A program made the translations under genes and the position numbers. The notes beneath the pieces were generated by a model, which was not told the origin of the DNA, searched no databases, and worked only from the letters and a program-made list of their open reading frames with translations. Of a stretch of DNA of 64,000 nt, positions 1-45,986 are shown piece by piece; position 1 is the first letter of the stretch; the number at the start of each line of letters is the position of its first letter. The DNA is taken from contig JACRCN010000044.1 of assembly GCA_016219005.1 (NCBI GenBank), positions 739 to 64,738 on the forward strand. Direction: 5' to 3'. This DNA is from Deltaproteobacteria bacterium. Its GTDB lineage: Bacteria; Desulfobacterota; Desulfobacteria; Desulfobacterales; SpSt-501.

Positions 1-923
1 GCGAGCTCCCGGTGATATTCCTCGTAGTGCGCATCCCCGAACACACCGAGAGGCAGGCCGCCCTGCCCGGCCAGCTCATCGAATTCGCCGGAGCGCGGCT
101 CATACACGAGGGCCGGTTCGTGGCCGGCGCGGACCCAGCGGATGCTCTTGGCCTTGCAGTCGATTTCCGCATAAAAGAGCGTCATGAATCGGCCCGAGGT
201 CTGCACGTCGTGCGTCAAGTGGCGGTTGACCTGGCCGACAATGGCTGACACGCTGCCGCGCTGCGAGGCGCATTCCCTCAAAAACGCCCGGGCCGTGGTC
301 ATCAGCAGCGCCGACGGAAGGCCGTGATCCGAGACATCCCCCACGACGATACTGATCGCGCGGCTCGCGCTGTCCGACTTCTCGAAATAGTCGTAATAAT
401 CGCCGCCCGTCTGGTCGCAGAACAGGCTCCGGCCGCCAACGTCCAGCCCGTCCCAGACGGAGCCGCCGTTCGGCAGCAGGTTCTGCTGGACCTCCATGGC
501 CTGCGTCAGCCAGCGGCGGCTGCGCTTGTTGAACTTGCGTTCTTTGTGGCTGCGCCGGTATTCATTAATGCCGGTCTGGACGGCCTCCAGGAGATTGTCC
601 GGCGAGCAGGGCTTGGTGAGAAACCGGAAAATGTTGCCCTGGTTCACGGCCTGAATGGCCGTACCGAGATCCGCGCTGCCCGTGAGCAGCATGCGCACCG
701 TTTCCGGCGCGATCTCCCGGGCCCGGCCGAGAAATTCGATCCCATTCATGCTGGGCATGCAGTAATCCGTGACGACCACGGAGAAGGGGCCGTCGCGCCG
801 GAGCACGTCAAGCCCTTCGGCGCCGCTTTCAACGGTCTCGATGGTCACCTTTTTTCGCAACTGTCGCTGGAAAGCCGCCAGTATCTTAGGGTCGTCATCC
901 ACAAAAAGCACTCGGTTAGACAC
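1..923 (-). CDS. Response-regulator receiver fused to a PP2C/SpoIIE-type serine phosphatase (RsbU/HsbR-like). The 3' end runs off the window.
   Basis: Absent from the ORF track because it is open at the window edge. Manual minus-strand translation from GTG at 921-923 gives VSNRVLFVDDDPKILAAF...FSVVVTDYCMPSMNGIEFL...FRFLTKPC (REC). This is followed by GGDYYDYF...IVVGDVSDHGLPSALLM...GRFMTLFYAEID (PP2C/SpoIIE-like). The start overlaps the stop of the upstream gene by 8 nt. Confidence 0.8.
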   Translation of the reverse strand, partial: MSNRVLFVDDDPKILAAFQRQLRKKVTIETVESGAEGLDVLRRDGPFSVVVTDYCMPSMNGIEFLGRAREIAPETVRMLLTGSADLGTAIQAVNQGNIFRFLTKPCSPDNLLEAVQTGINEYRRSHKERKFNKRSRRWLTQAMEVQQNLLPNGGSVWDGLDVGGRSLFCDQTGGDYYDYFEKSDSASRAISIVVGDVSDHGLPSALLMTTARAFLRECASQRGSVSAIVGQVNRHLTHDVQTSGRFMTLFYAEIDCKAKSIRWVRAGHEPALVYEPRSGEFDELAGQGGLPLGVFGDAHYEEYHREL

Positions 924-2142
924 GTTCGGTCTCCCTCGAACAGATCCCGCGACAAGTCCCCTCCCATGCGCCAAACCGTTCCGCCACGTTCAGCTGTTTG
1001 AGGACCTCCGGGTCGACGGCGGCAGCTGCTTCGTCCCCGGGCGTTCCGGAGAGCATATGCTCCAAGCCATTGGCCGCGTAGACGACCGCCAGCACCCGGG
1101 TAAGGGTTGACGCCCGTGACGGGCATTGGTGGTAGGCAATGGCATCCACCACTTCCTCGCCAATCCCCCACAGACCCAGCAGGTAGGCGCCAAGCTCGGC
1201 ATGCGAGCCCCCGAAGATTTCCTGCTCGAGTTCTGCCGCAGGCCGCCGGTGCGCCCGGGATCGCATGACGACATCGGCATAGAGTTCCGGGAAATTGTGG
1301 GCCAGGATCAGTTTTCCGACGTCGTGAAGAACTCCGGCCGTGAAGGCTTCGTCCTGTGCCGTGCGCGGGAGCTTTTCGCCGACCGCGATGGTCCGCGCGA
1401 ACAGGCCTGTGTTCATACTGTGCTGCCAGAGCGCATTCACATCCATGCACCGCACCCGCTTCGCATCGAATTGGGAAAAAATCTTGTTGGACAACACCAG
1501 GGCTTTCAGTGTGTCGTATCCCAGCATGGCCACCGCGTCCTGGGGGTTCAGGATGCGGCGGGTCAGTCCGAAAAAGGCGGAATTGACGATCTGCAGAACC
1601 TTGGCGGTCATGCCGACATCGCGCGCTATGAGATCCCCCACCCTCCTGAACGAGGAATTCGGCGCTTGGATCTCCGCGAGCAGTTCCGCATAGATCTCCG
1701 GCAGGCTTGGCAGGGAATCCAGCCGCGCCAGCAACTCCTTCAGGCGGCGGTCGTCCACCCAGCGGCGTAGGGCGAATGCCTGTGACAAGGCGGACTTGAG
1801 GGCCTCGGCATCGCACGGTTTGGCCAGGTACCGATGGGCGCAACGCACCGTCTTGAAGCCCGATGCCTGGTTCATCTCCCCGGACAGCACGATCCGCACC
1901 ATGTGCGGATGACGATCCTTCACGGTGTTGAGCAACTGCTCCCCGTCCATCCCCGGCATGCGCAGGTCGGTCACCACCGCGTCGAAGGCTTCGCGCTCCA
2001 GCAGACTGAGGGCCTCCCGGCCGCTCGCCGCGAATTGCATCGCCCAGGCCTCCCGCTCGCCACGCAGCATCCGCTTCAGGCCCTGCAATACCAGAGGCTC
2101 GTCGTCCACGAAGAGAACGGCACACGCATTGGGATGGGTCAT
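916..2142 (-). CDS. Response regulator with C-terminal HDOD domain
   Basis: N-terminus VLFVDDEPLVLQGLKRML...AVVTDLRMPGMDGEQLL...RYLAKPC matches REC. C-terminal LPSLPEIYAELL...AKVLQIVNSAFFGL...GVLHDVGKLIL...HAELGAYLL matches HDOD. ATG start at 2140-2142, one nt after the kinase stop. Confidence 0.9.
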   Translation of the reverse strand: MTHPNACAVLFVDDEPLVLQGLKRMLRGEREAWAMQFAASGREALSLLEREAFDAVVTDLRMPGMDGEQLLNTVKDRHPHMVRIVLSGEMNQASGFKTVRCAHRYLAKPCDAEALKSALSQAFALRRWVDDRRLKELLARLDSLPSLPEIYAELLAEIQAPNSSFRRVGDLIARDVGMTAKVLQIVNSAFFGLTRRILNPQDAVAMLGYDTLKALVLSNKIFSQFDAKRVRCMDVNALWQHSMNTGLFARTIAVGEKLPRTAQDEAFTAGVLHDVGKLILAHNFPELYADVVMRSRAHRRPAAELEQEIFGGSHAELGAYLLGLWGIGEEVVDAIAYHQCPSRASTLTRVLAVVYAANGLEHMLSGTPGDEAAAAVDPEVLKQLNVAERFGAWEGTCRGICSRETERV

Positions 2143-2143
2143 G

Positions 2144-3424
2144 TCACACCGCCTGTTTATCGAGGGGCAGGTTGATGGTGAAAGTAGTCCCCAGCCCCAC
2201 CTCCGATTCGAAAAAGATTCGGCCGCCGTGTTTGTCCACGATCACCGGGTGGCAGATGGCCAGGCCCTGACCGGTGCCTCGGCCGGGCTCCTTGGTCGTG
2301 AAAAAGGGATCGAAAATGCGGGGCCGGATCGCCTCCGGAATGCCGCCGCCGGTGTCACGGATCTGAATCTCGGCCCAGTCGTCCTTGCGACGCGTGGCGA
2401 CGGTAATGACCCCTTTGGACATCCGCCCCTGTTTCACCTGGTCCTCGATGGCATGGGCCGCGTTGACCACCAGGTTCAGGATCACCTGGTTGATCTCCCC
2501 CGGATGGCAAGACACCTCCGGGAGCGAGCGGTCGAAGTCGGTCACCAGATCCGCCACATACCTCCACTCGTTGCGCGCCACCGTCAGGGTGGTCTCGATG
2601 ATCTTGTTGAGGTCCGCCGGCACCTTGTCCTCCCGGCCGGGATGGGCGAACTCCTTCATGGCCCGCACGATCTTGGCAATGCGATCGATCCCCTCCAGGG
2701 TGTGGCGGATCGCGAGGGGGATCTCGTGGGTGAGGTAGTCGAGGTCCGCCCGCCGGATGGACTCGTCCACGGCGCGGATCACCTCCGGGCGGACGGGTCC
2801 GGACCGGGCGTCCCGCAGAAGGCCGGCCTGCTGTGTTACCACATCCATCAGGTCGGCAAAGGCGTCTTGAAGAAAGCGTGTGTTGTCGCCCACGTACTGG
2901 GTCGGCGTGTTGATCTCGTGGGCGATACCCGAGGCCAGCTGTCCGATGGTCCGCAGCTTCTGCGCCTGGGTGAGTTGTTGTTCCAGGTTCTTGCGCTCCG
3001 TGGTGTCGGCGCCGATGATGGTGATCCCCAAAAACACATCACCGTCCCGGGTCAGCGGATGAATCGTCAGCCCCAGCACCCCGTCCTTGCCGTTTGTGCG
3101 CACGAAGGACACGTCGTCGACCCGGATCGAAACACCTTCCTCGCGACACGCGCTGATGCCCCGGCGTATCCGGTCCCAATCCCAGTGAATGCCGGTGTCC
3201 TCCAGGAGTTTGCCGCGAGTCTGCGCGGCGGTGGCGCCGAGCACACTGCCGGCCATCTGGTTCCAGCGCGTGACCCGCAGGTCCTGGGACAGCCCGATCA
3301 GGATGGTCGGCAGCGTGTCCAGCAACTGCTCGGTCTCCTGCAGGGCCCGCTGCGCCTCCGGCCTCTCGGCTTTAGGCTCCGGCGGCTGCTCGGTTCCCGT
3401 CAACGTGTCCAAAATCACGGGCAT
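2144..3424 (-). CDS. PAS-domain sensor histidine kinase
   Basis: The H-box is [21 protein letters not shown] boxes are [10 protein letters not shown] and RDTGGGIP...GTGQGLAI, and a PAS-like segment lies upstream. I prefer ATG at 3424 (GGAGG 4 nt upstream) over the GTG at 3448 used by the ORF track. Confidence 0.9.
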
Positions 3425-3444
3425 CACGCCTCCATTGGCCGGCC

Positions 3445-3909
3445 TCACCGACGCACGTCCACCCAGATTCCCATGTCCCGCAACAGGTTGAGTGCCGCGT
3501 CCCGGTCGACGTCCGAATCCCGGCGGCTGGCCGCGACGATGGCCTGCAGCACGTCGTCGCTCACCCCGGCCTTCTTGAGTTCGATGATGTCCGCGGCCGT
3601 CGTGAAGCGGATGGAGCGCAGGTCTTTGCCGTAAACGATCGGCTCGCGGTCCTTCAGGAAGGATCCCTCGGCGAGGATGGTCTGCAGGGTGCCCTCGCCG
3701 ATCCCGGCCGCCTTCATGGCCAGGATCTCGTCCACGGTGAACGCGGCGGTCTCAATCGTCTTCTCCTTGGCCATGACCTCGAGGGTTTGGTCGCTGACCC
3801 CGGCTTTCTTGAGCCGCACCGCATCCTTGGCATCCAAGCCGAAGGCCATGGAAGACATCGCCACGATCCCGATCAAGACCCACGCTGTCTTCAGCATCAT
3901 CGTCTGCAT
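3445..3909 (-). CDS. Secreted/periplasmic protein with three ~24-aa repeats; unknown function
   Basis: Signal-peptide-like MQTMMLKTAWVLIGIVAMSSMAFG. Three repeats: AVRLKKAGVSDQTLEVMA, ILAMKAAGIGEGTLQTILA, IIELKKAGVSDDVLQAIVA. ATG start. Confidence 0.65.
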   Translation of the reverse strand: MQTMMLKTAWVLIGIVAMSSMAFGLDAKDAVRLKKAGVSDQTLEVMAKEKTIETAAFTVDEILAMKAAGIGEGTLQTILAEGSFLKDREPIVYGKDLRSIRFTTAADIIELKKAGVSDDVLQAIVAASRRDSDVDRDAALNLLRDMGIWVDVRR

Positions 3910-4982: not shown

Positions 4983-7954
<2,972 letters not shown>

Positions 7955-7971
<17 letters not shown>

Positions 7972-8353
7972 GAAACACCCCCTTTCCCAGCACGTTCTTG
8001 ACCTTGTCCCGGATGATTTCCGGAGAGAAGGGCTTGTGAATGAAATGGACGCCCTTGCGCTGTAGCCGATCGATGCGGGTCTGGCTGCCCTCGGTGGAGA
8101 TGACGATCGTGGGGATCGTTTTCAGGTTGGGGCTGGCCTGCATGTGTTCGATCATTTCCTCGCCCGTCATCACCGGCATGTTGATATCGGCGATAACGAG
8201 GTCGATCCACTCCCGTTCAAGGGCCTCGAGACCCTCGCGACCGTTGGCGGCCTGGTGGATCTCCCCCAGCTGAAGACCGCTCAGCTGCACGGTCTTCTGG
8301 ATCATCGCACGCATCACTGCGCTGTCGTCGACTATCAGCACGTTGACTGCCAT
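7955..8353 (-). CDS. cheY: Single-domain chemotaxis response regulator
   Basis: 132 aa: VLIVDDSAVMRAMI...LVIADINMPVMTGEEM...IVISTEG...FIHKPF. Confidence 0.9.
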
Positions 8354-8422
8354 GGAACACCTGCTTCTTCCCGCTTGAGTTGTTGCCCTCCGCGACGGTT
8401 CTGCCGCGCCTCCCGCTCACCG

Positions 8423-9268
8423 CTACGCCGCCAGCGCCTGGGAAAGCTCGTTGGCCCACTGCAGGGTTTGGCTGGCGACTTTTTCCAGGTGCGACGTGGT
8501 GATCCCCAGCCGCTTCGTCACCACGGGCGAGGGCCGATAGTTCAGGCCCTCGCGGCCCACCCCGATCCCGATCATCAGACAGAGCATGTTCGCCACGTGA
8601 ACGACGTCCATTATCGGGTCGATGCGCTGCGCTTGCTCGGGTTCGTGATGCCAGCGTACGGCGTGCACGATGCCCTCCGGAAGCGACCATTTCGAAAGCA
8701 CCTGGGCGCCGACTTCGGCGTGGTTGGTGCCTAAAACGATGGATTCGGCAGTCTCGAACGGCAGCCCCTGGTCCAGGGCCAGCGCAATCTTGACATAATC
8801 GTTATGGACGAACTGCCCCAGGATGATCTTTCCGACATCGTGCAGCAGCGCCGCGGTGAAGACTTCCTCCCCCCCATCAAGCTTGAGCGCTCGCACCAGG
8901 CCCTCGGCCGCCACGGACACGGCCAGGGAGTGCCGCCAGAGCTCGCCGGCGGGCAGATCGTAGCCAGGCACCGTACGGTCCATGATGGCGCTGGTGCAGG
9001 TGGCGATGACCATCTGGACCATCCGCTTCAACCCGAGCAGGATCACCGCCTGCCGCACGGAACCAACCTTGGACGGAATCCCGAAATAGGCTGAGTTCGC
9101 CAACCTGAGAAGGTTCGCGGTGAGCCCGGGGTCCTGGCGCAGGATGGATTCGATCTGCGCTATGCTGACATCGGGATCGTCCACCAGCGTCAGCAGTTTG
9201 ACCGCCGCCCCCGGCATGCCGGGGAATTTCTCGACCTGCGCAACGATGGGGTGTTCCTTGGTCGTCAT
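8423..9268 (-). CDS. Stand-alone HDOD-domain protein inside the che operon
   Basis: FPGMPGAAVKLLTL...LLRLANSAYFG...AALLHDVGKIILG...NHAEVGAQVL matches the HDOD pattern. ATGA overlap with the cheD stop. Confidence 0.85.
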   Translation of the reverse strand: MTTKEHPIVAQVEKFPGMPGAAVKLLTLVDDPDVSIAQIESILRQDPGLTANLLRLANSAYFGIPSKVGSVRQAVILLGLKRMVQMVIATCTSAIMDRTVPGYDLPAGELWRHSLAVSVAAEGLVRALKLDGGEEVFTAALLHDVGKIILGQFVHNDYVKIALALDQGLPFETAESIVLGTNHAEVGAQVLSKWSLPEGIVHAVRWHHEPEQAQRIDPIMDVVHVANMLCLMIGIGVGREGLNYRPSPVVTKRLGITTSHLEKVASQTLQWANELSQALAA

Positions 9269-9738
9269 AACAGCCTCTTAATGCCTGCGCTGCTGAGCGT
9301 GACCTGGCCGTTGGAGACGTCGAAGTGGATCGTGCGGCTGTTCGTGCCGCCGACGTCCTCGGACTCCAGCAGGATGTTGTTCTTCCACAAAAGCTTTTTC
9401 AGCACCGTGTAGTTGCGTTCGCCGATCTTGAACACCTCGTTCTTGCCCATCGGGTTGCCGCAACCCGCCGCCTTCACCACCAGCCGCCCTTTGAGAGCCC
9501 CCTTCTCGTAGAGCGATCGGAACAGCATCGGGACCCCCGTATCCACGAACATGGCGGGATTGGCCTGGGCTTTCTGCGGATTGATGCTGGAAAGCGACAG
9601 CATCGCGTGCAGCAGACCGCCCACTTTGGCCACCGGGTCGAAGACCGTCAACCCCAGACAACTTCCCAGGGCGTGGGTCACCAGCATGTCGCCATCGCAC
9701 CCGATTTTAAAATCCCCGACGTTAACGATATGGTTCAT
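9265..9738 (-). CDS. cheD: Chemoreceptor glutamine deamidase CheD
   Basis: MNHIVNVGDFKIG...THALGSCLGLTVFDP...GGLLHAMLS...KAAGCGNPMG. The ORF-track frame extends to 10248, but that upstream part overlaps cheR and is low-complexity. ATG at 9736-9738. Confidence 0.9.
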   Translation of the reverse strand: MNHIVNVGDFKIGCDGDMLVTHALGSCLGLTVFDPVAKVGGLLHAMLSLSSINPQKAQANPAMFVDTGVPMLFRSLYEKGALKGRLVVKAAGCGNPMGKNEVFKIGERNYTVLKKLLWKNNILLESEDVGGTNSRTIHFDVSNGQVTLSSAGIKRLL

Positions 9739-9764
9739 GAATTCCCCGATCCGCGCGAGCACCG

Positions 9765-10580
9765 TTACTTCTGATACACCGCCGGCCGCACGTAGCGAAA
9801 ACGATGCTTGACCGACGAAAGACCCTCCGAGTGGCCCACGAACAGGTGTCCCCCGGGCTCCAGGAAGTCCCAGAACCGGTTGATGAGCTCCTGCTGGGTG
9901 GGCCGGTCGAAGTAGATCATCACGTTGCGGCAGAAGATCACCTGGAAAAGCCCCTTCATCGGCCAGGGATCCATCAAATTTAAATGCGCGAAGTGCACAA
10001 GCGCGCAGGCCTCGGCGGCGATCTGGCAGCTGCCGGAGCGGTCGTTGCGCCGCACGGTGAAGTATTTCCGGTATGCCGGAGTCGGCACCTCGTCCACGGC
10101 GTCCTGCGGGTAAACCGCTTGAAGGGCCTTGTCGAGCATCCGCCGCGAAATGTCGGTGGCGAGAATACGCACGTCCTTGCGCTCGATCGCCGGCAGGTGC
10201 TCCCGCAGCAGGATCGCCAGGCTGTAAGGTTCCTCCCCCGAGGAGCACGCCGCGCTCCAGAAGCGCACCCGCGACGTATTCATCCCCGGCAGCACCTGCT
10301 CGCGCAGAAAATGGAAGTGGTCCACCTCCCGGAAGAAACTCGTCTTGTTGGTGGTCATGACATCGATCAGGGCAGCCACCTCGCCGCTGCCCCGATCGCT
10401 GTCGATAAAATCGATATAATCCTCCACCCGGCTCATCCCCAGAAAGCGCAGCCGTTTCATCAGGCGCGCCCGGACCAGGGCCTCTTTGCCTTCCTTCAGG
10501 TTAATGCCGGCGGTCCGGTAAACCATGGCACTGATCTTCTGAAACTGTTTCGGATTCAGGTCTGCGACGGCCAGGTTCAT
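9765..10580 (-). CDS. cheR: Chemotaxis protein methyltransferase
   Basis: TTNKTSFFRE..HF...RFWSAACSSGEEPYSLA...ILATDIS...FQVIFCRNVMIYFD matches CheR. Confidence 0.95.
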   Translation of the reverse strand: MNLAVADLNPKQFQKISAMVYRTAGINLKEGKEALVRARLMKRLRFLGMSRVEDYIDFIDSDRGSGEVAALIDVMTTNKTSFFREVDHFHFLREQVLPGMNTSRVRFWSAACSSGEEPYSLAILLREHLPAIERKDVRILATDISRRMLDKALQAVYPQDAVDEVPTPAYRKYFTVRRNDRSGSCQIAAEACALVHFAHLNLMDPWPMKGLFQVIFCRNVMIYFDRPTQQELINRFWDFLEPGGHLFVGHSEGLSSVKHRFRYVRPAVYQK

Positions 10581-10606: not shown

Positions 10607-13177
10607 TCAGGCGGCCAGTGACTGAGTCTTCATGGCCCCGGCCTCGTCCCGGAGTCCTTCGCGACGTTCCGGTGTCGCGAAGCGCAGCAGTCCGCCCACG
10701 TCCAGGATCAATCCCACCCGGCCGTCCGGCAGGATAGCACCGCCGGAAATGCCGGGAATGTCCCTCATGGACTCTCCCAGGCTCTTGATGACCACCTGCT
10801 GACGCCCGACCAGCTCGTCGATGACGAGCCCGGCCTTGCGCTCCCCATCTTCCACCACCACCACGACCGCCCGGTCCAGATCGTCCGCGGCGTCCTGGAT
10901 GCCGTAGATCTGCGACATGCGGTACAGCGGGATGAGGTTGCCCTGCAGCAGGAGCATCTCGCCCTGCTGGAACACGGAGGAAACGTCACCGGGCGCGGGT
11001 TTCACCGAGCGGATGATCGAAATCGTCGGGATCACGTATGTCTCGCGGCCGACGTGGATCACCATGCCGTCGATGATCGCCAGGGTAAGCGGCAGGCTCA
11101 TCCTGAAAACACTCCCCCGGCCCAGTTCGGATTTGATTTCCACCTGCCCGCGCAGCAGTTCGATGTTCTTCTTGACCACGTCCATGCCCACGCCGCGGCC
11201 CGACACGTCGGTGACGACCTTGGCGGTGGAGAAGCCCGGCTCGAAAATCAAGTTGAACACTTCCCGGTCGCTCAGGCTGCGCTCGTCGAAGTCGGGAGCG
11301 TTGCTGATGAGCCCCCGTTCCTTGCCCTTGGCGATGAGCACATCGCGGTCCAGGCCCTTGCCGTCGTCGCTGATCTCCACGACCACGCTGCCGGCCGAGT
11401 GGTAGGCCGCGATCTTCACCGTCCCCTGCTCGGGTTTGCCGGCCGCCCGCCGTTCCTCCGGCGTTTCGATCCCGTGGTCCACGGCGTTGCGGACCATGTG
11501 CAGCAGCGGATCGTTGATGATGTCCACCAGGTTGCGGTCTATCTCGGTGTCTTCGCCTTCGGTGATAAAATCCACGTTTTTGTTCAGCTTGCGGGCCACA
11601 TCCCGCACCAGCCGGGCCATCTTGCTGAAGGTGGCTTTCAGCTCCACCATCCGCATGGACATGCTGATCTCCTGGAGCCCCCGAACGATCTTGGTGGTGT
11701 GGACGATTTTTTTGGCCAGGTCGTGATTCTGGCCGTCTACCACCCGGGCATCCTGGGCGACCATCGAGTGGGCGATGACGAGCTCGCCGACCATGTCGAT
11801 CAGCCGGTCCAACCGCTGCGTGCTCACCCGCACCGAGGCTTCGACAGCCTGGCCGCCGTCACGCATCTGCTTCTGGCTGCGCAGCGCCTGCCCCACGTCG
11901 GCAATACTAGCCGCCTGAGACTTGACCAGGGCGACACCCAACTTCTCCGTGGGGTGCTCGATCAGGGCTTGCTCAATCTGGCTCCGATCGACCTTGCCCT
12001 GGGCGACGAGGATGTCGCCGATGCGCGGTGAGCCAATGGTCTCCTGTTCCTCTGAGATGCCGGCCGCTTCCGGGTTTTTCAGCACCGCCAGGAGTTCGTC
12101 GTACCCCCTGGGCTTGGCCAAGGGCTCTCCGCCCAGCGCACGCTTCACGGCCTCCACCAAGGTCTTGATCATGTCCAGCCCCTGCAGCGACAGGTCCGCG
12201 TAACCGCCGCTGTAGCGGATCTCTCCATCGCGCACGCGGCTGAGCAGAGTCTCGGCATGATGTCCGAACTCCGCAATCAGGCGGAGCTCGAGAAAGCCCG
12301 AGGTGCCCTTGACGGTGTGAAAGGCACGGAAGACCTTGCCCACGGCTTCCGCATCCCCGGGGTCGTGCTCGAGGGACAGCAACGCCTCTTCCGCATTCTG
12401 GATGAGATCGGTGCTCTCGTTGATGAATTCGGCCATGAGGTCCAGGTCGAAGTTCTGGGGCATGTAATCGGCGACGGCCTCATCGGCCGGCACGCTGGAC
12501 ACGGAGGGGTCGGGAGATTTTTCGGCCGCCCGTTCCGGCACCGGTTCCGGACGTTCCTGCGCCGTGATGGCCTGATCCAGGAGAACACCGAGCGCACCGA
12601 TCGCCGCCTCCGGGTCGGACACCCTGCCGCCGCCAAGTTCCGCTGCGCGTTCGACGGCATCCTGCAAATGCCGCCGGCAGCCCTTTGGCAGTTCCTCGTC
12701 CAGGCCAAGACGCCGCAACTCCTTCTCCAGCCGCATCCACCCGTCGGTATCCGATGCCGTAAGCCGCATGAGGAGTGCTGCCGCGTCATCGAGCGTCAGT
12801 ACTTCCGCGGAGCCGGCGGGTGTATCCCCAGCGCGGTCCGGTTCAAAGACAGCCGCCAGCCGGTCGCCAGCCGCCGCCAACTCATCGCTCCCGGGGTGGC
12901 CGCCGTAGGCCCGCTCCGAGGCCTGCAACGCCCCGGCCAAGGCGTCCACGGCACCCAGCATGTCGGGTACCGAATTTCCAGCGAGATGCATCAACCCTTG
13001 CACGGCCTGCTCAAGCAGTGCTTTGGCCCCAGGCGGCTCGGCTGCCGCGGCCTTCGCCGCGCGCTGCACCTTGGCGGCCAGTTTTTTCCAGGCCCCTCGG
13101 TCGCTCACGCTGATGGCGTCCAGGTCTTCCAAAAGCTTTCTGAGTTTGTCTGTCACCTGTTGTCGGCCTTTGCCCAT
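10607..13177 (-). CDS. cheA: Chemotaxis histidine kinase CheA with an atypical ~245-aa N-terminal extension
   Basis: Hpt motif is KVFRAFHTVKGTSGFLEL. The dimerisation domain shows RVSTQRLDRLIDMVGELVI. HATPase motifs are HMVRNAVDHGIE and DDGKGLD...GRGVGMDVV. The C-terminal CheW-like domain shows LLLQGNLIPLYRM...GAILPDGRVGLILD. Start chosen at ATG 13175-13177 (GAGAGGA upstream). The 918-aa track ORF would overlap flgN. Confidence 0.9.
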   Translation of the reverse strand: MGKGRQQVTDKLRKLLEDLDAISVSDRGAWKKLAAKVQRAAKAAAAEPPGAKALLEQAVQGLMHLAGNSVPDMLGAVDALAGALQASERAYGGHPGSDELAAAGDRLAAVFEPDRAGDTPAGSAEVLTLDDAAALLMRLTASDTDGWMRLEKELRRLGLDEELPKGCRRHLQDAVERAAELGGGRVSDPEAAIGALGVLLDQAITAQERPEPVPERAAEKSPDPSVSSVPADEAVADYMPQNFDLDLMAEFINESTDLIQNAEEALLSLEHDPGDAEAVGKVFRAFHTVKGTSGFLELRLIAEFGHHAETLLSRVRDGEIRYSGGYADLSLQGLDMIKTLVEAVKRALGGEPLAKPRGYDELLAVLKNPEAAGISEEQETIGSPRIGDILVAQGKVDRSQIEQALIEHPTEKLGVALVKSQAASIADVGQALRSQKQMRDGGQAVEASVRVSTQRLDRLIDMVGELVIAHSMVAQDARVVDGQNHDLAKKIVHTTKIVRGLQEISMSMRMVELKATFSKMARLVRDVARKLNKNVDFITEGEDTEIDRNLVDIINDPLLHMVRNAVDHGIETPEERRAAGKPEQGTVKIAAYHSAGSVVVEISDDGKGLDRDVLIAKGKERGLISNAPDFDERSLSDREVFNLIFEPGFSTAKVVTDVSGRGVGMDVVKKNIELLRGQVEIKSELGRGSVFRMSLPLTLAIIDGMVIHVGRETYVIPTISIIRSVKPAPGDVSSVFQQGEMLLLQGNLIPLYRMSQIYGIQDAADDLDRAVVVVVEDGERKAGLVIDELVGRQQVVIKSLGESMRDIPGISGGAILPDGRVGLILDVGGLLRFATPERREGLRDEAGAMKTQSLAA

Positions 13178-13866: not shown

Positions 13867-14208
13867 TCACTTTTTTGGGGCAACCGGTCCCTGGAACGGG
13901 GCGCCGCGGCGGTCCAGTTGCTCGCGCAGCATGGAAGACAGACCCAGTGCCCCCCGGTTTGCCAGATCCTTGGCCAGTTCGGCGTCCATGAGCGAGGTGT
14001 AGACCTCCTCGGCACGGCCGCCGTCGGTCAGGCCGGATTTGGTCACGGTCTTGCGCATTTCGCTCAGCATGTGATTGATGAACAGGGCTTCCATGTCGTT
14101 GCAGACGGCCTTGAACCGGCTGTCGTCGGCCGGAAGCGCTGGGGCGCGCGGCGCTTTCAGCGGCGCACCCGTGAGCGGCGCGAGGGATCGGTCGACGGGT
14201 TCGGGCAT
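13867..14208 (-). CDS. flgJ: Rod-binding protein (FlgJ N-terminal domain only; no muramidase domain)
   Basis: 113 aa with FKAVCNDMEALFINHMLSEMRKT...EEVYTSLMDAELAKDL, the Rod-binding motif. It follows flgI (TAATG overlap). Confidence 0.8.
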   Translation of the reverse strand: MPEPVDRSLAPLTGAPLKAPRAPALPADDSRFKAVCNDMEALFINHMLSEMRKTVTKSGLTDGGRAEEVYTSLMDAELAKDLANRGALGLSSMLREQLDRRGAPFQGPVAPKK

Positions 14209-18904: not shown

Positions 18905-19062
18905 AACCCAATCGTCGAGGATGAGAGGCCGCGCGGGGTCAAGGCGTCACGTGCCAATGGCTTTCCCGGGTGCTTTTGGCATACCGGGACTCCCTGGGAT
19001 CGCCGCGGATGAGTATCGAACCTCAGCCGGTTGGGCAAAAATTGCCGGTCGCCGACCCCGGG

Positions 19063-19563
19063 TCACGATGCCGCCCGCCGCAGCTTAAGGGCCAGCTCGA
19101 CCTCTCCGCTGGGCAACCGGAGTTGCTCGGCGATCTGCTTGGCACTGAGGCCCTCGCCGGCCAACCCGAGCACGCCCTCGTAACGCCCCGCACTCGATCC
19201 GCTGGAAACGGGGGGGATATCCTCCCCGAGCCGGAACGGCAAGTGTTCCGCGCTGGCGGCATCTGCGGCCGTACCGGCACCTGGAAGACGGGCATCGGCG
19301 CCGTCGAAGGTCTGCTGCAGTCGCAACTGTTCGGCCTGCACAGCCTTCAGGATGACCTCCAGTGCCAGTTCGGTCTGCTGTCGGATGGACTGCAACCGGA
19401 TTTCCTGGGTGAACGGGATGACGCGGTCGCGCCCCTCGCCTTCCGCCAGAAAACGTTTGGTCTTGAGCTTGTTTCGAATCAGGACCACCAGAATCACGCT
19501 GCACATCGCGATCTGAATCGCGTTGCATACGACATCCCAACGCCATGCTTCCCATCCTGCCAT
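19063..19563 (-). CDS. Membrane-anchored DUF2802-like protein with a C-terminal HTH-like segment
   Basis: N-terminal TM is VVCNAIQIAMCSVILVVLI, followed by a coiled-coil middle. The C-terminus GLAGEGLSAKQIAEQLRLPSGEVELALKLRR resembles the DUF2802 family seen in flagellar/che loci. This is recalled from memory, not searched. Confidence 0.6.
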   Translation of the reverse strand: MAGWEAWRWDVVCNAIQIAMCSVILVVLIRNKLKTKRFLAEGEGRDRVIPFTQEIRLQSIRQQTELALEVILKAVQAEQLRLQQTFDGADARLPGAGTAADAASAEHLPFRLGEDIPPVSSGSSAGRYEGVLGLAGEGLSAKQIAEQLRLPSGEVELALKLRRAAS

Positions 19564-19591
19564 GCGGGACCCTCCCCTGAAGTAACGGCTC

Positions 19592-19764
19592 AGGTGTTCA
19601 GGCTGAAGGCTGAAGGCTGTAAAACATCTCGCGAAGCGCGAACCACGCCATTCATGACCTTCTCGGTTTCTACGACCTATGGTTCAATAACCAGCTTAAA
19701 TACCCGGCGACGTCTTGTGTGATCACGCATGGTTTGTCCCTGAAAGCCTTCAGTCTGCCTACCT
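19592..19764. repeat. Palindromic intergenic repeat, copy A (arms plus an enlarged internal segment)
   Basis: AGGTGTTCAGGCTGAAGGCTGAAGG ... GCCTTCAGTCTGCCTACCT. The flanks taacggctc / gaagcagttac match copy D. Confidence 0.7.
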
Positions 19765-20922: not shown

Positions 20923-21852
20923 CTACATGGGGGTGGTACGAACCAGATGGTGCCAGAAAAAGTTGGTGTTGCCCTTCGGCCGGCTGGAGGGCTTTGTCAT
21001 GGCCATCCGCCGGGCCAGGTCCATGAAGCAGCGGCTGGCCTTGGAATCGGGGTAGAGATCGCTCACCAGCCGCTGGCGTTTGACCCCGCGGGTGACCTTG
21101 TCGTCGTAGAGGACGCTGCCGAGGTAATCGATGTGGATGTCCAGAAAACGGTCGGTGACCAGGACGAGCTGCCGGAAGACGTCCTCGCCCTCCCGGGCAC
21201 TGGCCACCATGTTGACCAGCAGTTTGCAGCTTTTCTCCGCGTATTTCAGGGACAGCACTTTCATGAGGGCATAGGCGTCCGTGATCGATGTGGGCTCAGG
21301 CGAAACTACGACGACGATCTCGTGGGCCATCACGTTGAAATCCATGACGTTGGTGGAAATGCCGGCCGCCGTGTCGATCAGCAGGATGTCCACGTCGTCG
21401 ATGAGCCGGTCGAGGTCGGTGAGGAACTGCACCTTCTGGTCATTGGTCAGATGGGTGAGCTCCTGGATGCCGGAGGACGCCGGCAGGATGCGCATCTTCC
21501 CCGGTCCCTTCTCCAGGATATCGGCGATGGACTTCTCCCCGCGAATGACGTGCGAAATGTTGAATTTCGGCGCGATCCCCAGCAGCACGTCCATGTTTCC
21601 CAGGCCGAGATCGGCATCCAAAACGAGCACCTTCTTCCCGAGATTGCTGAAGGCGAACCCCAGGTTGGCGACGATGTTGGTCTTGCCGACACCCCCCTTG
21701 CCGCTGGTGATGGCGATCACCCGCGCGTGGGTTTTACGCTGGCGCGAGGTTTCGCCCGCATCTCCCAGCCCGTCGCGGCGCGGCAGAGGAATCACTTTTT
21801 TCGAGGGGTCTTTCACGATCATGATGCCAGAGTCTCCTCGCTGGGGATCCAT
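20923..21852 (-). CDS. flhG: MinD/ParA-family flagellar number regulator
   Basis: Deviant Walker A is IAITSGKGGVGKT, followed by VLVLDADLGLGN. It follows flhF. The ATG shares one nt with the flhF TGA (TGATG). Confidence 0.9.
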   Translation of the reverse strand: MDPQRGDSGIMIVKDPSKKVIPLPRRDGLGDAGETSRQRKTHARVIAITSGKGGVGKTNIVANLGFAFSNLGKKVLVLDADLGLGNMDVLLGIAPKFNISHVIRGEKSIADILEKGPGKMRILPASSGIQELTHLTNDQKVQFLTDLDRLIDDVDILLIDTAAGISTNVMDFNVMAHEIVVVVSPEPTSITDAYALMKVLSLKYAEKSCKLLVNMVASAREGEDVFRQLVLVTDRFLDIHIDYLGSVLYDDKVTRGVKRQRLVSDLYPDSKASRCFMDLARRMAMTKPSSRPKGNTNFFWHHLVRTTPM

Positions 21853-23264
21853 CACCGGTAGCCGGAAATGCGGGCGCGATCCCGCACGACCGCGCCGTTG
21901 TCGACTTGGTCCGGTTGATCCGGGCCGCAATTCCGACAGGGCAGGAACCGCCGGGACTCGGCCTCTGCCACCGTTGCGAACGATATGAGATTATCGGACT
22001 TGATCTTCCGGACCCACTTGCAGCCGGGCAGGTGGTAGAGCTCGGAATTACGGTTGGCGACAAAGCGCGCGGAGTTCGTGCGGCCGGACAGGGTAGTGCC
22101 GTGCCGTTCGTCGCCCGGGCGCTCGTTGCGGACGGAGTCGGCCGCGGCTATCGGCAACATGCGGTCGAGCAACAGCTCCAGGGGCTCCGCGACGAGGTCT
22201 TCCGGAACCCGCGGGCCGGTGCTCACCCACGACACCGGCAGCTGCGTCTGGACCATGAGGTTGAGGACTACGCCCCAGGTGCCGGCTTCATCGAGCCGGG
22301 TGAAAACCAGGCGGTGGATCGCCACCCCCTTCCACGCATCGACGACTCGCCGCAGGTCCTTCTCCCGGCTGGCCGCGCTGAGCACCAGGTGGATCTCCCG
22401 GGAAGGCAGCATGTCCAGGATCGGCCGCAGCGCGCTGCGCCGGTCCGCCTCGCCCGGGCTGATGCCCGGGGTGTCCACTATCAGGGTGTCGGCATCGCCG
22501 AGATCCGCCAGAGCCCGGCGGGCCTCCTCCGGGGATGTGGCCACCGCCAGGGGAACTCCGAGAATGGCGGCATAGGTGCGGAGTTGCTCGATGGCGCCGA
22601 TGCGCACATCGTCCAGCGTCAGGAGGGCCGGCGTGCGCTGCTGCCGCAGCCGCAAGTCGGCCGCGAGCTTGATCGCGGTGGTCGTCTTGCCCACGCCGGC
22701 GGGACCCACCAGCACGATCGCCCGCGGACGAGGAACAGCGTCGGCCCGCCGCAGTCCCATGTCCTGAAGGATACCGGCCAGCAGCGCCCGGAGGCGCTCG
22801 GTCCCGTACCGCTGGTCATAGCCGGGCAGCCGTTTGAGGTGATCGACCAGGTCGGTAGCGAGCTCGCGCTCGAGGTCCTGCGCCAGCAGGTGCTGATAAA
22901 GCTCCGCCAGCTCCGGCGCCGCGCCGGCCTCGGAGGCGGGTGCCTCGACGGGCCGGCGCCGGACAGCGAGCGATCGCAGGCTTTGATTCAAGGATTGGAA
23001 GAGGCCGCGCCGGCCGTGGGCGGTCTGCGGCGCGAGCCTTTCAGGGGCCGGGACCGGCGCGTAGCTGCCGGTGGCAGTGTAGGCCACCGAGTCGCTGTCT
23101 TTCGCAGCGGTGACCTCCACCCCCGACATCGGTCCGGCGCTAAATATCCCACGCCCGCTCCGGAGGCTGCGGGCGGTCAGGATCACGGCATTCGGACCGA
23201 ACTCGTCCTTAACCATCTTCAGAGCCGCCGTCATGGTCTTGGCTTCAAACCGTTTAATCTGCAT
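21852..23264 (-). CDS. flhF: SRP-type GTPase FlhF with an extra C-terminal Ada-like zinc-ribbon tail
   Basis: MQIKRFEAKTMTAALKMVKDEFGPNAVIL, then GPAGVGKTTT, DTPG and LVFTRLDE. The tail reads SELYHLPGCKWVRKIKSDNLISFATVAEAESRRFLPCRNCGP. Confidence 0.9.
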   Translation of the reverse strand: MQIKRFEAKTMTAALKMVKDEFGPNAVILTARSLRSGRGIFSAGPMSGVEVTAAKDSDSVAYTATGSYAPVPAPERLAPQTAHGRRGLFQSLNQSLRSLAVRRRPVEAPASEAGAAPELAELYQHLLAQDLERELATDLVDHLKRLPGYDQRYGTERLRALLAGILQDMGLRRADAVPRPRAIVLVGPAGVGKTTTAIKLAADLRLRQQRTPALLTLDDVRIGAIEQLRTYAAILGVPLAVATSPEEARRALADLGDADTLIVDTPGISPGEADRRSALRPILDMLPSREIHLVLSAASREKDLRRVVDAWKGVAIHRLVFTRLDEAGTWGVVLNLMVQTQLPVSWVSTGPRVPEDLVAEPLELLLDRMLPIAAADSVRNERPGDERHGTTLSGRTNSARFVANRNSELYHLPGCKWVRKIKSDNLISFATVAEAESRRFLPCRNCGPDQPDQVDNGAVVRDRARISGYR

Positions 23265-44103: not shown

Positions 44104-44174
44104 CGCTTTCAACAATGGCCGAGGCCCGCGGCCGCCGTCGGCTTGAACCGTAGTATTGGGCCAGAATCTGTTCA

Positions 44175-44189
44175 GCAAATAGCATGCCA
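44175..44189 (-). promoter_or_regulatory. Sigma-54 promoter-like site upstream of the FlrC-like regulator and flgB operon
   Basis: The minus strand reads TGGCAT-GCTAT-TTGCT, 72-86 nt upstream of the start codon. Confidence 0.55.
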
Positions 44190-44327
44190 CCCGGCATTGC
44201 GCGGTCGCCGCCGGCCCGGGCGAGAGCTGGCGCGGCGTGCGGCAAGTCCCCACTCCCTCATCCGGCCGAAATCGCCGTCAATGGTCGTGGATGCGGCCGT
44301 CACCCTCTTGACGCAGGTTTTTTGCAA

Positions 44328-44552: not shown

Positions 44553-44814
44553 TGAGGTTTCTTGATAACGCATTTTCAGGTGGTTTGCGCGTTTCGCAGT
44601 TAAACGTGATTTCAGATGGCGAAGGTGCAACAATATCGGATGCATCGGCAGTCGAAGCGGGAGACAGGATCTTCGAAAGGTGGCAAGGCGGGACGAGCCT
44701 CAGGATCGACGGCAACTTGCGCAGCTCCGGTGTCTCAGAGGGATGCTTACGCCCTCCCCCTTTGATCTTTCAGCCTTGAGCTTCGATGTCCATTGTCCCC
44801 GCTTTCAGCTTTCC

Positions 44815-45879: not shown

Positions 45880-45986
45880 GGCGATCTCCTTTTCGGGTGC
45901 ACCCGCGCGCCAAACTCATCGCACGCGGGAGATTGCGGTCACGCGCAAAGCGCTCCGCTCGACAACGGCAACGCAACGGCAGTTGA

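What the first reader, a model, noticed from the sequence alone, without database searches (positions are those of the whole stretch)
10607..13177. CheA with a ~245-aa N-terminal extension and a tandem MshEN/T2SSE_N-like motif where P2 should be
The phospho-accepting His (FRAFHTVKG) sits near residue 287 of the protein as I start it (ATG 13177). A helical, Ala-rich ~245-aa region (12443-13177) with no recognisable domain precedes the Hpt domain.

Between Hpt and the dimerisation domain (11873-12028) the sequence reads RIGDILVAQGKVDRSQIEQALIEH-PTE-KLGVALVKSQAASIADVGQALRSQ. Each half approximates the 24-residue motif RLGxx(L/V/I)(L/V/I)xxG(L/V/I)(L/V/I)xxxxLxxxLxxQ described for the c-di-GMP-binding MshEN domain. 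There are several mismatches and a 3-residue rather than 5-residue spacer.

A c-di-GMP or other ligand input directly on CheA would be noteworthy.
Basis: inference. Interest (0 to 1): 0.65.

Follow-up and report, generated by a model that had tools for sequence, protein, structure and literature searches.

The report
CheA kinase with MshEN-type insert
[quoted passage not shown] It also has an uncharacterised duplicated helical domain at its N-terminus. The kinase/module fusion was catalogued in 2016 and is widespread, but I found no paper that tests it.

Summary
ORF 10607-13177(-) encodes an 856-aa CheA with P1/Hpt (His287), P3, P4 and P5, and no P2.

Residues 385-435 form a divergent MshEN_N-type module.
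- The NCBIfam c-di-GMP_motif model aligns end to end, but below its cut-off.
- A profile of orthologous segments finds PilF GSPII-C (E=2e-9) and MshE in the PDB.
- An AlphaFold model (pLDDT 86) superposes on c-di-GMP-bound PilF and MshE at 1.3-1.8 Å.
- Most ligand-contact positions are conserved. Exceptions are His408 for Gln32, Gln421 for Gly47 and a 3-residue spacer.

The 245-aa extension is genuine coding sequence. It holds two homologous helical bundles (1-117 and 124-212) and a disordered linker. The module is seen almost only at CheA N-termini.

A CheA/MshEN_N fusion was already listed by Wang et al. 2016. I found the tandem motif at the same position in CheAs from about a dozen lineages. 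I found no paper testing it.

Best explanation: c-di-GMP binds the short tether between P1 and P3 and modulates kinase output. This is plausible (about 0.45) but untested. I rate it a new variant of a known kind, of moderate interest.

The parts
10607..13177 (-). cheA gene, 856 aa plus stop
   Evidence: ORF and translation. Pfam finds Hpt, H-kinase_dim, HATPase_c and CheW. NCBIfam CheA models match at E=1.5e-123.
12827..13177 (-). N-terminal module A (aa 1-117), a five-helix bundle present only in a subset of relatives
   Evidence: AF2 pLDDT is about 90-98, with helices 3-21, 27-43, 49-67, 73-91 and 97-116. It is homologous to module B: hhalign E=2e-5 over 75 columns and BLAST 29% identity. 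No Pfam or NCBIfam family matches.
12542..12808 (-). N-terminal module B (aa 124-212), a four-helix bundle with consensus SLDDAAALLIQLEPxD...DP...E.G.LLE.A, present in nearly all relatives
   Evidence: Alignments A2 and A3. AF2 helices 129-138, 144-158, 165-183 and 189-208. Only 199 representatives reach E<=1e-3 among 1.84 billion proteins. Of the 37 listed hits of at least 450 aa, 28 carry a CheA-type phospho-His motif downstream; most shorter hits are probably fragments.
12443..12541 (-). Disordered Pro/acid-rich linker (aa 213-245), ending in the conserved DYMPxDxD that precedes P1
   Evidence: pLDDT is 51-66 with no secondary structure. Length varies between relatives, and P240 and D244 are at least 90% conserved.
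12062..12442 (-). P1/Hpt domain (aa 246-~372) with phospho-accepting His287 (codon 12317-12319)
   Evidence: Pfam PF01627 covers 246-343 at E=8.8e-12. His position. The extension to about residue 372 as a fifth helix (conserved GYDELLxxLxNPE) is my inference.
11873..12025 (-). MshEN_N-type module (aa 385-435): motif I RIGDILVAQGKVDRSQIEQALIEH, spacer PTE, motif II KLGVALVKSQAASIADVGQALRSQ
   Evidence: NF053729 aligns 1-53/53 at E=1e-6 to 1.6e-8. The family profile hits PilF GSPII-C at 2.1e-9 and MshE at 1.5e-3. AF2 pLDDT is 94 in the core. The top 16 Foldseek hits are all MshEN/GSPII domains. Chance control.
11654..11839 (-). P3 dimerisation domain (aa 447-508), only about 11 residues after the MshEN_N module
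   Evidence: Pfam PF02895 at E=1.3e-12. Linker KQMRDGGQAVE.
11084..11512 (-). P4 kinase (HATPase_c) domain (aa 556-698)
   Evidence: Pfam PF02518 at E=1.9e-17.
10682..11068 (-). P5 CheW-like domain (aa 704-832)
   Evidence: Pfam PF01584 at E=2.9e-21.
6374..10580 (-). Downstream che genes that appear co-oriented in one operon: cheR 9765-10580, cheD 9265-9774, HDOD 8423-9268, cheY-like REC 7955-8353, cheX 7444-7971, cheB 6374-7447
   Evidence: Pfam and ORF translation for CheR. The same order occurs in the Desulfatibacillum MAG L003. A similar set occurs in Desulfonema magnum L001.

Best explanation
What it is
- This is the CheA kinase of a flagellar chemotaxis operon in a Desulfobacterales-type bacterium.
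- The usual P2 (CheY-docking) domain is replaced by a 51-residue MshEN_N-type four-helix module.
- That module is the only folded element in the short tether between the phospho-accepting P1 domain and the P3 dimerisation helix.

Proposed mechanism (inferred, not shown)
- One c-di-GMP molecule binds between the two 24-residue motifs, as in MshE and PilF.
- The first guanine would be held by Arg385 together with Ile401, Leu405 and Leu413.
- The second guanine would be held by Lys412 together with Ile386, Val428 and Leu432.
- Backbone amides of Gly387-Asp388 and Gly414-Val415, and the side chain of Gln435, would complete the site.
- Ligand-induced ordering of the module would change the length or geometry of the P1-P3 tether. 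That would change how efficiently P1 reaches the P4 ATP site, or hands phosphate to CheY and CheB.
- Cellular c-di-GMP would thereby bias flagellar chemotaxis output directly at the kinase.

The N-terminal extension
- The 245-aa extension is a separate, lineage-restricted accessory. It consists of two duplicated helical bundles on a flexible acidic linker.
- It most likely acts as a protein-interaction or autoregulatory element. Its function is unknown.
For: Domain identity
- NF053729 'c-di-GMP_motif, MshE-related' aligns over its full 53 positions to aa 385-435.
- 54 of 59 orthologous segments hit that model at E<=1e-3; the best is 3.1e-14.
- A profile of the family hits PilF GSPII-C across both motifs (E=2.1e-9) and MshE 5HTL (1.5e-3).
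- The AF2 model has pLDDT 85.9.
- The Foldseek top 16 PDB hits are all MshEN/GSPII domains. The best are c-di-GMP-bound PilF-GSPIIB and MshE: rmsd 1.3-1.8 Å over 54-57 columns, TMq 0.68-0.69.

Ligand-contact positions under selection
- Motif I: R 100%, hydrophobic 98%, G 100%, D 100%.
- The equivalents of Leu25 and Leu29 are hydrophobic in 98% and 97%.
- Motif II: G 100%, V/I 100% (V 97%), L/I 100%, Q 98%.

Published tolerance of the deviations
- K, L or P at motif position 1 still allows binding. GSPII-C, whose motif II starts with Pro, binds c-di-GMP (PMC11731258).
- The isolated N-terminal subdomain is sufficient for binding (PMC12002112; PMC5013675).
- A conserved Pro precedes Arg385 (consensus PRxGD). 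In my reading this should prevent the extra N-terminal helical turn that blocks binding in GSPII-A.

Accessory, modular character
- Relatives in the same clade have only an acidic linker, or a remnant of the motif, at this site.
- Other phyla carry near-canonical versions at the same offset from the phospho-His.

Context
- The gene is embedded in flagellar and che genes.
Against: - No binding data exist for this or any CheA in the literature I could search.
- The query is below the curated NF053729 cut-off: 28.4 to 34.2 bits against 38.
- PF05157 gives no hit.
- His408 replaces Gln32. In PilF GSPII-A the same His is one of three changes that had to be reverted to restore measurable binding.
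- Gln421 replaces the turn residue Gly47, and Lys395 replaces a core hydrophobic residue.
- The spacer is 3 residues rather than 5 in 55 of 59 relatives.
- Family-invariant Arg398 and Arg433 (100%) and the 92%-conserved Glu402 are not part of the MshEN consensus. They could mark a different ligand or a protein interface.
- No GGDEF, EAL or PilZ gene, and no c-di-GMP riboswitch, was found in the window.
- The direction of regulation and the tether mechanism are pure inference.
Confidence: 0.45

Rival explanations
1. The module is a degenerate MshEN_N domain that no longer binds c-di-GMP. It would serve as a protein-docking or structural element, for example a surrogate for the missing P2 that docks CheY, CheB or CheX. 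It could also bind an adaptor, as the MshEN domain of Xanthomonas PilB binds PilZ.
For: - It sits exactly where P2 normally is, and no P2 is present.
- It carries family-specific charged residues outside the MshEN consensus: invariant Arg398 and Arg433, plus Glu402 (92%), Asp427 (71%) and Lys419 (68%).
- It has His at the motif-I terminal position, like the non-binding PilF GSPII-A.
- MshEN-fold domains that bind proteins rather than c-di-GMP exist. PilB-PilZ complexes (7lkm, 7lkn, 7lko) are among the Foldseek hits. XpsE has lost binding (PMC5013675).
Against: - The positions most strongly conserved across 59 relatives are the ones that contact c-di-GMP in MshE and PilF.
- Versions in other phyla match the binding consensus at 21-22 of 22 positions.
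- Non-binding MshEN domains such as PilB of P. aeruginosa and V. cholerae, and XpsE, have lost the RLG/G signature (alignment). This one keeps it.
Confidence: 0.3
2. The module binds a related nucleotide rather than c-di-GMP, for example 3',3'-cGAMP or another cyclic dinucleotide. The family-specific Arg398, Arg433 and His408 would tune specificity.
For: - VcMshEN binds cGAMP weakly (figure legend in PMC5013675).
- The subfamily has its own invariant basic residues, a shorter spacer, and His in place of Gln at a phosphate/ribose-contacting position.
Against: - The Gly-Asp backbone amide pair that reads guanine O6/N7 is invariant in motif I, and the Gly is invariant in motif II.
- No evidence for another ligand was obtained.
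Confidence: 0.1
3. The motif resemblance is a chance feature of a helical linker, or the N-terminal extension is an artefact of choosing too early a start codon.
For: - Single 24-residue windows scoring 9/11 occur elsewhere in CheA homologues, for example in the P3 helix MVGELVIAHSMVAQD.
- The ORF can be read from several in-frame Met codons.
Against: - A tandem this good appears in 8 of 5000 shuffles, and it is unique in the window.
- The profile and fold evidence is independent of the regular expression.
- The extension aligns from residue 1 with distant homologues whose N-termini coincide.
- The extension folds with pLDDT 87.
- A Shine-Dalgarno-like box precedes ATG 13177.
Confidence: 0.03

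Closest known systems
CheA with an MshEN_N insert, as catalogued by Wang et al. [quoted passage not shown]
   Same: A CheA kinase with a tandem MshEN motif between P1 and P3, predicted on bioinformatic grounds to link c-di-GMP to chemotaxis.
   Different: - The Aeromonas protein keeps P2 and has a weaker motif I (MLGQLL..., no Arg). Here P2 is absent and the module directly replaces it.
- Here the spacer is 3 residues.
- Here there is a 245-aa N-terminal duplicated helical extension.
- I found no paper testing either protein.
MshEN/GSPII domains of T4P and T2SS ATPases (V. cholerae MshE, 5HTL; T. thermophilus PilF GSPII-B and GSPII-C, 8PDK and 6F8L)
   Same: - A four-helix N-subdomain built from two 24-residue motifs.
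- 27-33% identity and 1.3-1.8 Å rmsd to the model.
- The G(K)xxRE turn and a Pro/Lys start of motif II are shared with PilF GSPII-C.
   Different: - Those domains are N-terminal regulators of secretion ATPases and include a C-terminal subdomain. Here only the N-subdomain is present, embedded inside a histidine kinase.
- Here His replaces Gln32, Gln replaces Gly47, and the spacer is 3 residues rather than 5.
NfrB-type c-di-GMP-activated glycosyltransferases (C-terminal MshEN_N)
   Same: An MshEN_N module used as an accessory c-di-GMP sensor fused to an unrelated enzyme. The NfrB model NF008411 matches aa 386-438 at E=1.5e-4, and 17 of 59 relatives hit it.
   Different: The output domain differs (glycosyltransferase rather than kinase). 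In NfrB the module is terminal rather than internal.
Indirect c-di-GMP control of chemotaxis: the PilZ adaptor MapZ acting on CheR1, YcgR-type flagellar brakes, PilZ-containing chemoreceptors
   Same: The same physiological logic, coupling c-di-GMP level to motility and chemotaxis output. This comparison rests on my own knowledge and on titles cited.
   Different: Those systems use PilZ domains acting on CheR, the motor or receptors. Here the putative sensor is an MshEN_N fold built into the CheA kinase itself.
LID region of Vibrio and Pseudomonas CheA (ParP-binding, between P2 and P3)
   Same: An accessory element in the P2-P3 linker of CheA.
   Different: - LID consists of EFExLLD repeats found in organisms that have ParC and ParP. 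No such motif is present here.
- No ParP gene was seen in the window. The only ParA-like gene is the MinD/ParA-type ATPase next to flhF, which I read as flhG.

Membership tests
CheA (chemotaxis histidine kinase) | P1/Hpt domain with a phospho-accepting His in an H-T/S-h-K-G context | tested here: met
   PF01627 covers 246-343 at E=8.8e-12. His287 lies in FRAFHTVKG.
CheA (chemotaxis histidine kinase) | P3 dimerisation, P4 HATPase_c and P5 CheW-like domains in that order | tested here: met
   PF02895, PF02518 and PF01584 all score above their gathering cut-offs. NCBIfam CheA models match at E=1.5e-123, below the equivalog cut-offs.
CheA (chemotaxis histidine kinase) | P2 CheY/CheB-docking domain (typical but not universal) | tested here: not met
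   No P2 family appears even at E<=10. Only about 12 residues separate the end of P1 from the MshEN_N module, which leaves no room for a domain of about 70 aa.
CheA (chemotaxis histidine kinase) | Chemotaxis gene neighbourhood | tested here: met
   cheR, cheD, cheY-like, cheX and cheB lie downstream; flgN, flgI and other flagellar genes lie around them.
MshEN_N (c-di-GMP-binding N-subdomain of MshEN/T2SSE_N/GSPII) | Score at or above the curated cut-off of NCBIfam NF053729 (c-di-GMP_motif, 38 bits) | tested here: not met
   The query scores 28.4 bits in the whole protein and 32.7-34.2 bits as a fragment, aligned 1-53/53. 54 of 59 relatives hit at E<=1e-3. The best is 3.1e-14, which I estimate at about 53 bits by E-value scaling.
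MshEN_N (c-di-GMP-binding N-subdomain of MshEN/T2SSE_N/GSPII) | Two tandem 24-residue motifs RLGxx(L/V/I)(L/V/I)xxG(L/V/I)(L/V/I)xxxxLxxxLxxQ (relaxed form of Wang et al.) | tested here: inconclusive
   The query matches 9/11 and 10/11 of the relaxed positions. The mismatches are Lys395, His408 and Gln421. A tandem this good appears in 8 of 5000 shuffles.
MshEN_N (c-di-GMP-binding N-subdomain of MshEN/T2SSE_N/GSPII) | 5-residue spacer giving a 53-residue unit | tested here: not met
   The spacer is 3 residues (PTE) here and in 55 of 59 relatives. CheAs of other phyla have spacers of 1-8 residues.
MshEN_N (c-di-GMP-binding N-subdomain of MshEN/T2SSE_N/GSPII) | Four-helix fold superposable on ligand-bound MshE or PilF | tested here: met
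   AF2 pLDDT is 85.9, and 93-95 in the core blocks. The Foldseek top 16 hits are all MshEN/GSPII domains, with rmsd 1.3-1.8 Å, TMq 0.68-0.69 and probability 1.00. E-values are only 0.015-0.13 because the domain is small.
MshEN_N (c-di-GMP-binding N-subdomain of MshEN/T2SSE_N/GSPII) | Ligand-contact residues (R9, L10, G11, L25, L29, Q32; R38, L39, G40, L54, L58, Q61 of VcMshE) | tested here: inconclusive
   10 of 12 are conserved or conservatively replaced: R385, I386, G387, I401, L405, L413, G414, V428, L432 and Q435. K412 replaces R38, a tolerated class of change. H408 replaces Q32, an unfavourable precedent. Mapping.
MshEN_N (c-di-GMP-binding N-subdomain of MshEN/T2SSE_N/GSPII) | Specific binding of c-di-GMP | not testable with these tools
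   This needs ITC, DRaCALA or NMR on the purified fragment. No published test on any CheA was found.
Pfam PF05157 (T2SSE_N / MshEN) | Profile match | tested here: not met
   No hit at E<=10 for the fragment and none among 59 relatives at E<=1. According to the alignment in Wang et al., the Pfam model starts within motif II and mostly covers the C-subdomain, which is absent here.
Hpt / CheA P1-like domain (considered for the N-terminal modules) | Profile match to Hpt and a phospho-accepting His on helix 2 | tested here: not met
   - No PF01627 hit in any of 38 N-extensions.
- hhalign of module B against the family's own P1 gives E=0.078, and of module A gives 0.38.
- There is no His in the corresponding helices (sequence).
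- CheA P1 structures appear only as weak Foldseek hits: 1i5n at probability 0.72 and 2lp4 at 0.63.
CheA LID (ParP-binding region) | EFExLLD-type repeats, with ParC and ParP in the genome | tested here: not met
   No such motif occurs in the protein. No ParP gene was seen in the window.

The most novel reading that the evidence does not exclude
c-di-GMP binds directly to the CheA kinase through an MshEN_N module that replaces P2 and gates P1 phosphotransfer. This built-in second-messenger input would be shared by CheAs of about a dozen lineages, including Desulfobacterota, Planctomycetota with anammox bacteria, Zixibacteria, Fibrobacterota, Gemmatimonadota, Nitrospirota and Spirochaetota. In addition, the CheA-specific N-terminal duplicated bundle would be a previously undescribed regulatory domain, for example a His-less P1 mimic that competes with P1 for P4 or for CheY.
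Probability: 0.4. Interest if true: 0.65.

Novelty: new variant of a known kind. Interest (0 to 1): 0.45.

Why it matters
Known links between c-di-GMP and chemotaxis act on receptors, on CheR or on the motor, through PilZ proteins. A sensor built into CheA would put the second messenger at the central kinase of the pathway.

The prediction has stood since 2016, and I found no published test of it. This family offers a clean test case for three reasons.
- The module is the only folded element between P1 and P3.
- Natural relatives exist with and without it.
- Some relatives carry three motifs.

The N-terminal module is an uncharacterised domain seen almost only at CheA N-termini, and could be described as a new family.

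Tried and rejected
- **PF05157 scan.** No hit on the fragment or on 59 relatives. I set this aside as a negative, because the Pfam model largely covers the C-subdomain that is absent here.
- **Profile search for the N-extension with the search for homologous proteins (A2).** It returned only 7 hits, probably because word pre-filtering was swamped. It was replaced by the exhaustive representative search.
- **The search for related loci with alignment A1.** It failed because no stretch was conserved enough to back-translate. I used the whole protein instead.
- **Exact look-up of the window protein in public assemblies.** Not on record.
- **N-extension as degenerate Hpt/P1.** Not supported statistically.
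- **N-extension as TPR.** Only designed TPR-like proteins hit, at E of about 1e-3, through the 'LEPxDxxxW' hairpin. The AF2 model shows closed bundles, so I rejected this as uninformative.
- **Short 'Hpt-only' homologues P0004-6, P0028 and P0038.** They looked like a split architecture but are frameshifted gene calls with out-of-frame tails.
- **LID/ParP hypothesis.** Rejected.
- **c-di-GMP riboswitch or any Rfam family in the window.** None found.
- **Chemotaxis class.** I could not assign the F-class of Wuichet and Zhulin with these tools.
Full report
**1. The observation**

The minus-strand ORF 10607-13177 starts at ATG 13177. A GAGAGGAA box lies 6 nt upstream. The upstream gene, a FlgN homologue, stops at 13228. 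The product is 856 aa.

Pfam finds Hpt (246-343), H-kinase_dim (447-508), HATPase_c (556-698) and CheW (704-832). It finds nothing else above noise, and in particular no P2 domain. NCBIfam CheA models match the C-terminal two thirds at E=1.5e-123.

Residues 1-245 are 18% Ala. They match no Pfam or NCBIfam family.

The tandem motif lies at residues 385-435, window 11873-12025. It matches 9/11 and 10/11 positions of the relaxed motif used by Wang et al. 2016. A tandem this good arises in 8 of 5000 composition-preserving shuffles. It is the only one in all six reading frames of the window.

**2. The segment between P1 and P3**

Three independent lines show that it is a homologue of the MshEN_N subdomain.

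- *Curated profile.* The NCBIfam model NF053729 ('c-di-GMP_motif, cyclic di-GMP-binding domain-containing protein, MshE-related') aligns over all 53 of its positions.
  - E-values range from 1e-6 in the whole protein to 1.6e-8 for the fragment.
  - Scores are 28-34 bits, below the curated 38-bit cut-off.
  - The NfrB model also matches through its C-terminal MshEN_N, at E=1.5e-4.
- *Family profile.* I collected 120 relatives, mostly from Desulfobacterales and other 'Deltaproteobacteria' MAGs.
  - Nearly all carry the same tandem about 98 residues after the phospho-His.
  - A profile of 59 such segments (A1) finds T. thermophilus PilF GSPII-C across both motifs (E=2.1e-9) and V. cholerae MshE 5HTL (E=1.5e-3) in the PDB.
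  - 54 of the 59 segments individually hit NF053729; the best is 3.1e-14.
- *Predicted fold.* AlphaFold2 on A1 gives a four-helix unit with mean pLDDT 85.9, and 93-95 in the core.
  - The top 16 Foldseek hits in the PDB are all MshEN/GSPII domains.
  - They are led by c-di-GMP-bound PilF-GSPIIB and MshE, with rmsd 1.3-1.8 Å over 54-57 columns and TMq 0.68-0.69.
  - E-values are only 0.015-0.13 because the domain is small.

This is expected. In the alignment published by Wang et al., that model begins inside motif II and mainly covers the C-subdomain, which is absent here.

**3. Can it bind c-di-GMP?**

I mapped the family alignment onto VcMshE numbering (with the contact roles).

Conserved contact positions:

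| Position | Conservation in 59 relatives |
|---|---|
| Motif I Arg (R385) | 100% |
| Motif I hydrophobic (I386) | 98% |
| Motif I Gly-Asp (G387-D388), whose backbone amides read guanine O6/N7 | 100% |
| Equivalents of Leu25 and Leu29 | hydrophobic in 98% and 97% |
| Motif II Gly | 100% |
| Equivalent of Leu54 | V/I 100% (V 97%) |
| Equivalent of Leu58 | L/I 100% |
| Equivalent of Gln61 | Q 98% |

Deviations in the query:

- Lys412 replaces Arg38. The family has Pro 53% and Lys 31% here.
- His408 replaces Gln32. The family has His 36% and Gln 22%.
- Gln421 replaces the turn residue Gly47.
- Lys395 replaces Ile19.
- The spacer is 3 residues rather than 5, as in 55 of 59 relatives.

Published work bears on these deviations.

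- K or L at motif position 1 improves affinity in PilF GSPII-B. GSPII-C, whose motif II starts with Pro335, binds c-di-GMP with an affinity similar to MshEN's (PMC11731258).
- An isolated N-subdomain suffices for binding (PMC12002112).
- However, PilF GSPII-A has His at the motif-I terminal position and does not bind. H33Q was one of three reversions needed to restore measurable binding.
- GSPII-A is also blocked by an extra N-terminal helical turn. Here a conserved Pro precedes the Arg (consensus PRxGD), which in my reading should prevent such a turn.

The subfamily also has invariant Arg398 and Arg433, and a 92%-conserved Glu402, that are not part of the MshEN consensus. Binding is therefore plausible but uncertain. 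I put it near 0.45-0.5.

**4. Anatomy and proposed mechanism**

P1 probably runs to about residue 372, with the conserved GYDELLxxLxNPE as a fifth helix (inferred). The module occupies 385-435, and P3 starts at 447.

The MshEN_N unit is therefore the only folded element in a very short P1-P3 tether. Canonical CheAs have two long linkers and P2 at this point.

My proposal is that ligand-dependent ordering of this unit changes how P1 reaches P4, or how it presents phosphate to CheY and CheB. This is inference, not something shown here. Ligand-induced folding was reported for isolated subdomains.

The module behaves as an accessory.

- Clade members with the same N-terminal module and the same P1 and P3 boundaries have only an acidic linker here (P0135, P0167, P0175 and others).
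- One has a remnant of the motif (P0252, '...VGQALRTQ').
- Some have three motifs, as PilF GSPII-C does.

**5. The N-terminal extension**

It is real coding sequence.

- It aligns from residue 1 with homologues down to 22-31% identity, and their N-termini coincide.
- AlphaFold2 on alignment A2 gives pLDDT 87.3.
  - A five-helix bundle spans residues 3-116.
  - A four-helix bundle spans residues 129-208.
  - Residues 209-245 form a disordered Pro/acid-rich linker ending in the conserved DYMPxDxD.
- The two bundles are homologous: BLAST E=4e-4 at 29% identity, and hhalign E=2e-5 over 75 columns.
- Most relatives have only module B. This lineage and some others have both modules.

No known fold or family emerges.

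- Foldseek finds only generic or designed helical bundles. CheA P1 structures appear at low probability.
- Neither Pfam nor the PDB gives a meaningful sequence match.
- hhalign against the family's own P1 is not significant (E=0.078 and 0.38).

An exhaustive profile search of 1.84 billion representative proteins finds only 199 hits at E<=1e-3.

- Of the 37 listed hits of at least 450 aa, 28 carry a CheA-type phospho-His motif downstream.
- Most shorter hits are probably fragments.
- A few long, multi-stretch hits look like unrelated repeat proteins.

This is a narrow module seen almost only at CheA N-termini. Its function is unknown.

**6. Context and distribution**

The gene lies in a large flagellar region. 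The order around it is flgI, a small ORF (13867-14208) that I read as flgJ-like without scanning it, flgN, cheA, cheR, cheD, HDOD, cheY-like, cheX, cheB, flgK and flgL. Further along lie fliK, fliF, fliI, flhF, flhG, fliA, flagellin and a putative flagellin-glycosylation cluster.

The closest genome is an uncultured Desulfatibacillum MAG, at 67% identity with the same gene order. Desulfonema magnum has a similar che cluster.

I scanned 80 genome loci for the motif. A tandem MshEN motif lies about 90-105 residues after the phospho-His in most positive CheAs. The offset is larger (up to about 207 residues) in Brocadiaceae, Nitrospirales and Bacteriovoracaceae loci. Positive loci come from:

- Desulfobacterota
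- Planctomycetota, including Brocadiaceae
- Gemmatimonadales
- Fibrobacterota
- Zixibacteria
- Ignavibacteriaceae
- Nitrospirales
- Hydrogenedentes
- Auribacterota
- Spirochaetota
- Riflebacteria

Many of these have a canonical 5-residue spacer and match 21-22 of 22 motif positions. The architecture is therefore widespread.

**7. Comparison with what is known, and novelty**

Wang et al. 2016 state that MshEN associates with 'chemotaxis protein kinase CheA'. [quoted passage not shown] The fusion as such is already known from bioinformatics.

I found no paper testing c-di-GMP binding by any CheA. The library I could search is incomplete.

This protein differs from the published example in four ways.

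- It lacks P2.
- Its motif I is stronger than the Aeromonas one, but its spacer is shortened.
- It has subfamily-specific invariant residues.
- It has the duplicated N-terminal module.

The Vibrio/Pseudomonas LID (ParP-binding) element is a different thing.

I rate this a new variant of a known kind, with moderate interest (0.45).

- A specialist would not be very surprised.
- The family does make a ten-year-old prediction directly testable.
- It also contains an undescribed CheA-specific domain.

Noticed in passing
window 916-2142(-), 8423-9268(-), 48220-49068(-): One flagellar/chemotaxis region holds three HDOD-domain proteins. One is REC-HDOD. One sits inside the che operon between cheD and cheY. 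No GGDEF, EAL or PilZ gene was found among the ORFs scanned.
   Followed up: partly
window 21852-23264(-): The FlhF-like SRP54-type GTPase carries a C-terminal hit to the Ada Zn-binding domain (aa 400-449, E=1.5e-5). To my knowledge this is an unusual addition for FlhF.
   Followed up: no
window 51786-63842: A probable flagellin-glycosylation island lies next to a flagellin gene (49920-50753). It includes an 1821-aa protein with several GT2/GT4 domains and TPRs (53728-59193), a 668-aa GT2+TPR protein, an epimerase, a radical-SAM protein and a methyltransferase.
   Followed up: no
relatives P0013, P0026, P0058, P0076, P0089, P0111: Some CheA relatives carry three consecutive MshEN motifs. The extra motif-I copy follows with no spacer. 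This resembles PilF GSPII-C.
   Followed up: partly
relatives P0135, P0167, P0175, P0183, P0220, P0252: CheAs with the same N-terminal module have no MshEN_N and only an acidic/Pro-rich linker. P0252 and P0220 keep short remnants of motif II ('VGQALRTQ', 'SLRSQ'). This indicates loss, or modular gain and loss, within the clade.
   Followed up: partly
relatives P0004, P0005, P0006, P0028, P0038: Apparent 400-450-aa 'Hpt-only' homologues on long ENA contigs are frameshifted gene calls. Their C-terminal tails are out-of-frame translations of the MshEN region.
   Followed up: yes
L001 (Desulfonema magnum CP061800, 955850-974084): The homologous cluster reads cheA-cheR-cheD-mcp-cheD-cheY-cheX-cheB-cheD. 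It has three cheD copies and a split cheR call, and no flagellar genes lie within the 8 kb flanks. From my own knowledge, Desulfonema moves by gliding, so this CheA type may not be restricted to flagellar systems.
   Followed up: no
window 46538-47278(-); 42655-44253(-); 2144-3448(-): Other regulators lie in the region: a REC-STAS protein, a sigma-54 activator (REC-AAA-HTH_8) and a PAS histidine kinase next to the REC-HDOD gene.
   Followed up: no
window 3445-3909(-), 18970-19722(+), 44680-45834(+), 45461-46387(+): These ORFs of 154-384 aa have no Pfam family at E<=1e-4 to 1e-3. Some may not be genes, since they overlap ORFs on the other strand. No Rfam family was found anywhere in the window.
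   Followed up: no
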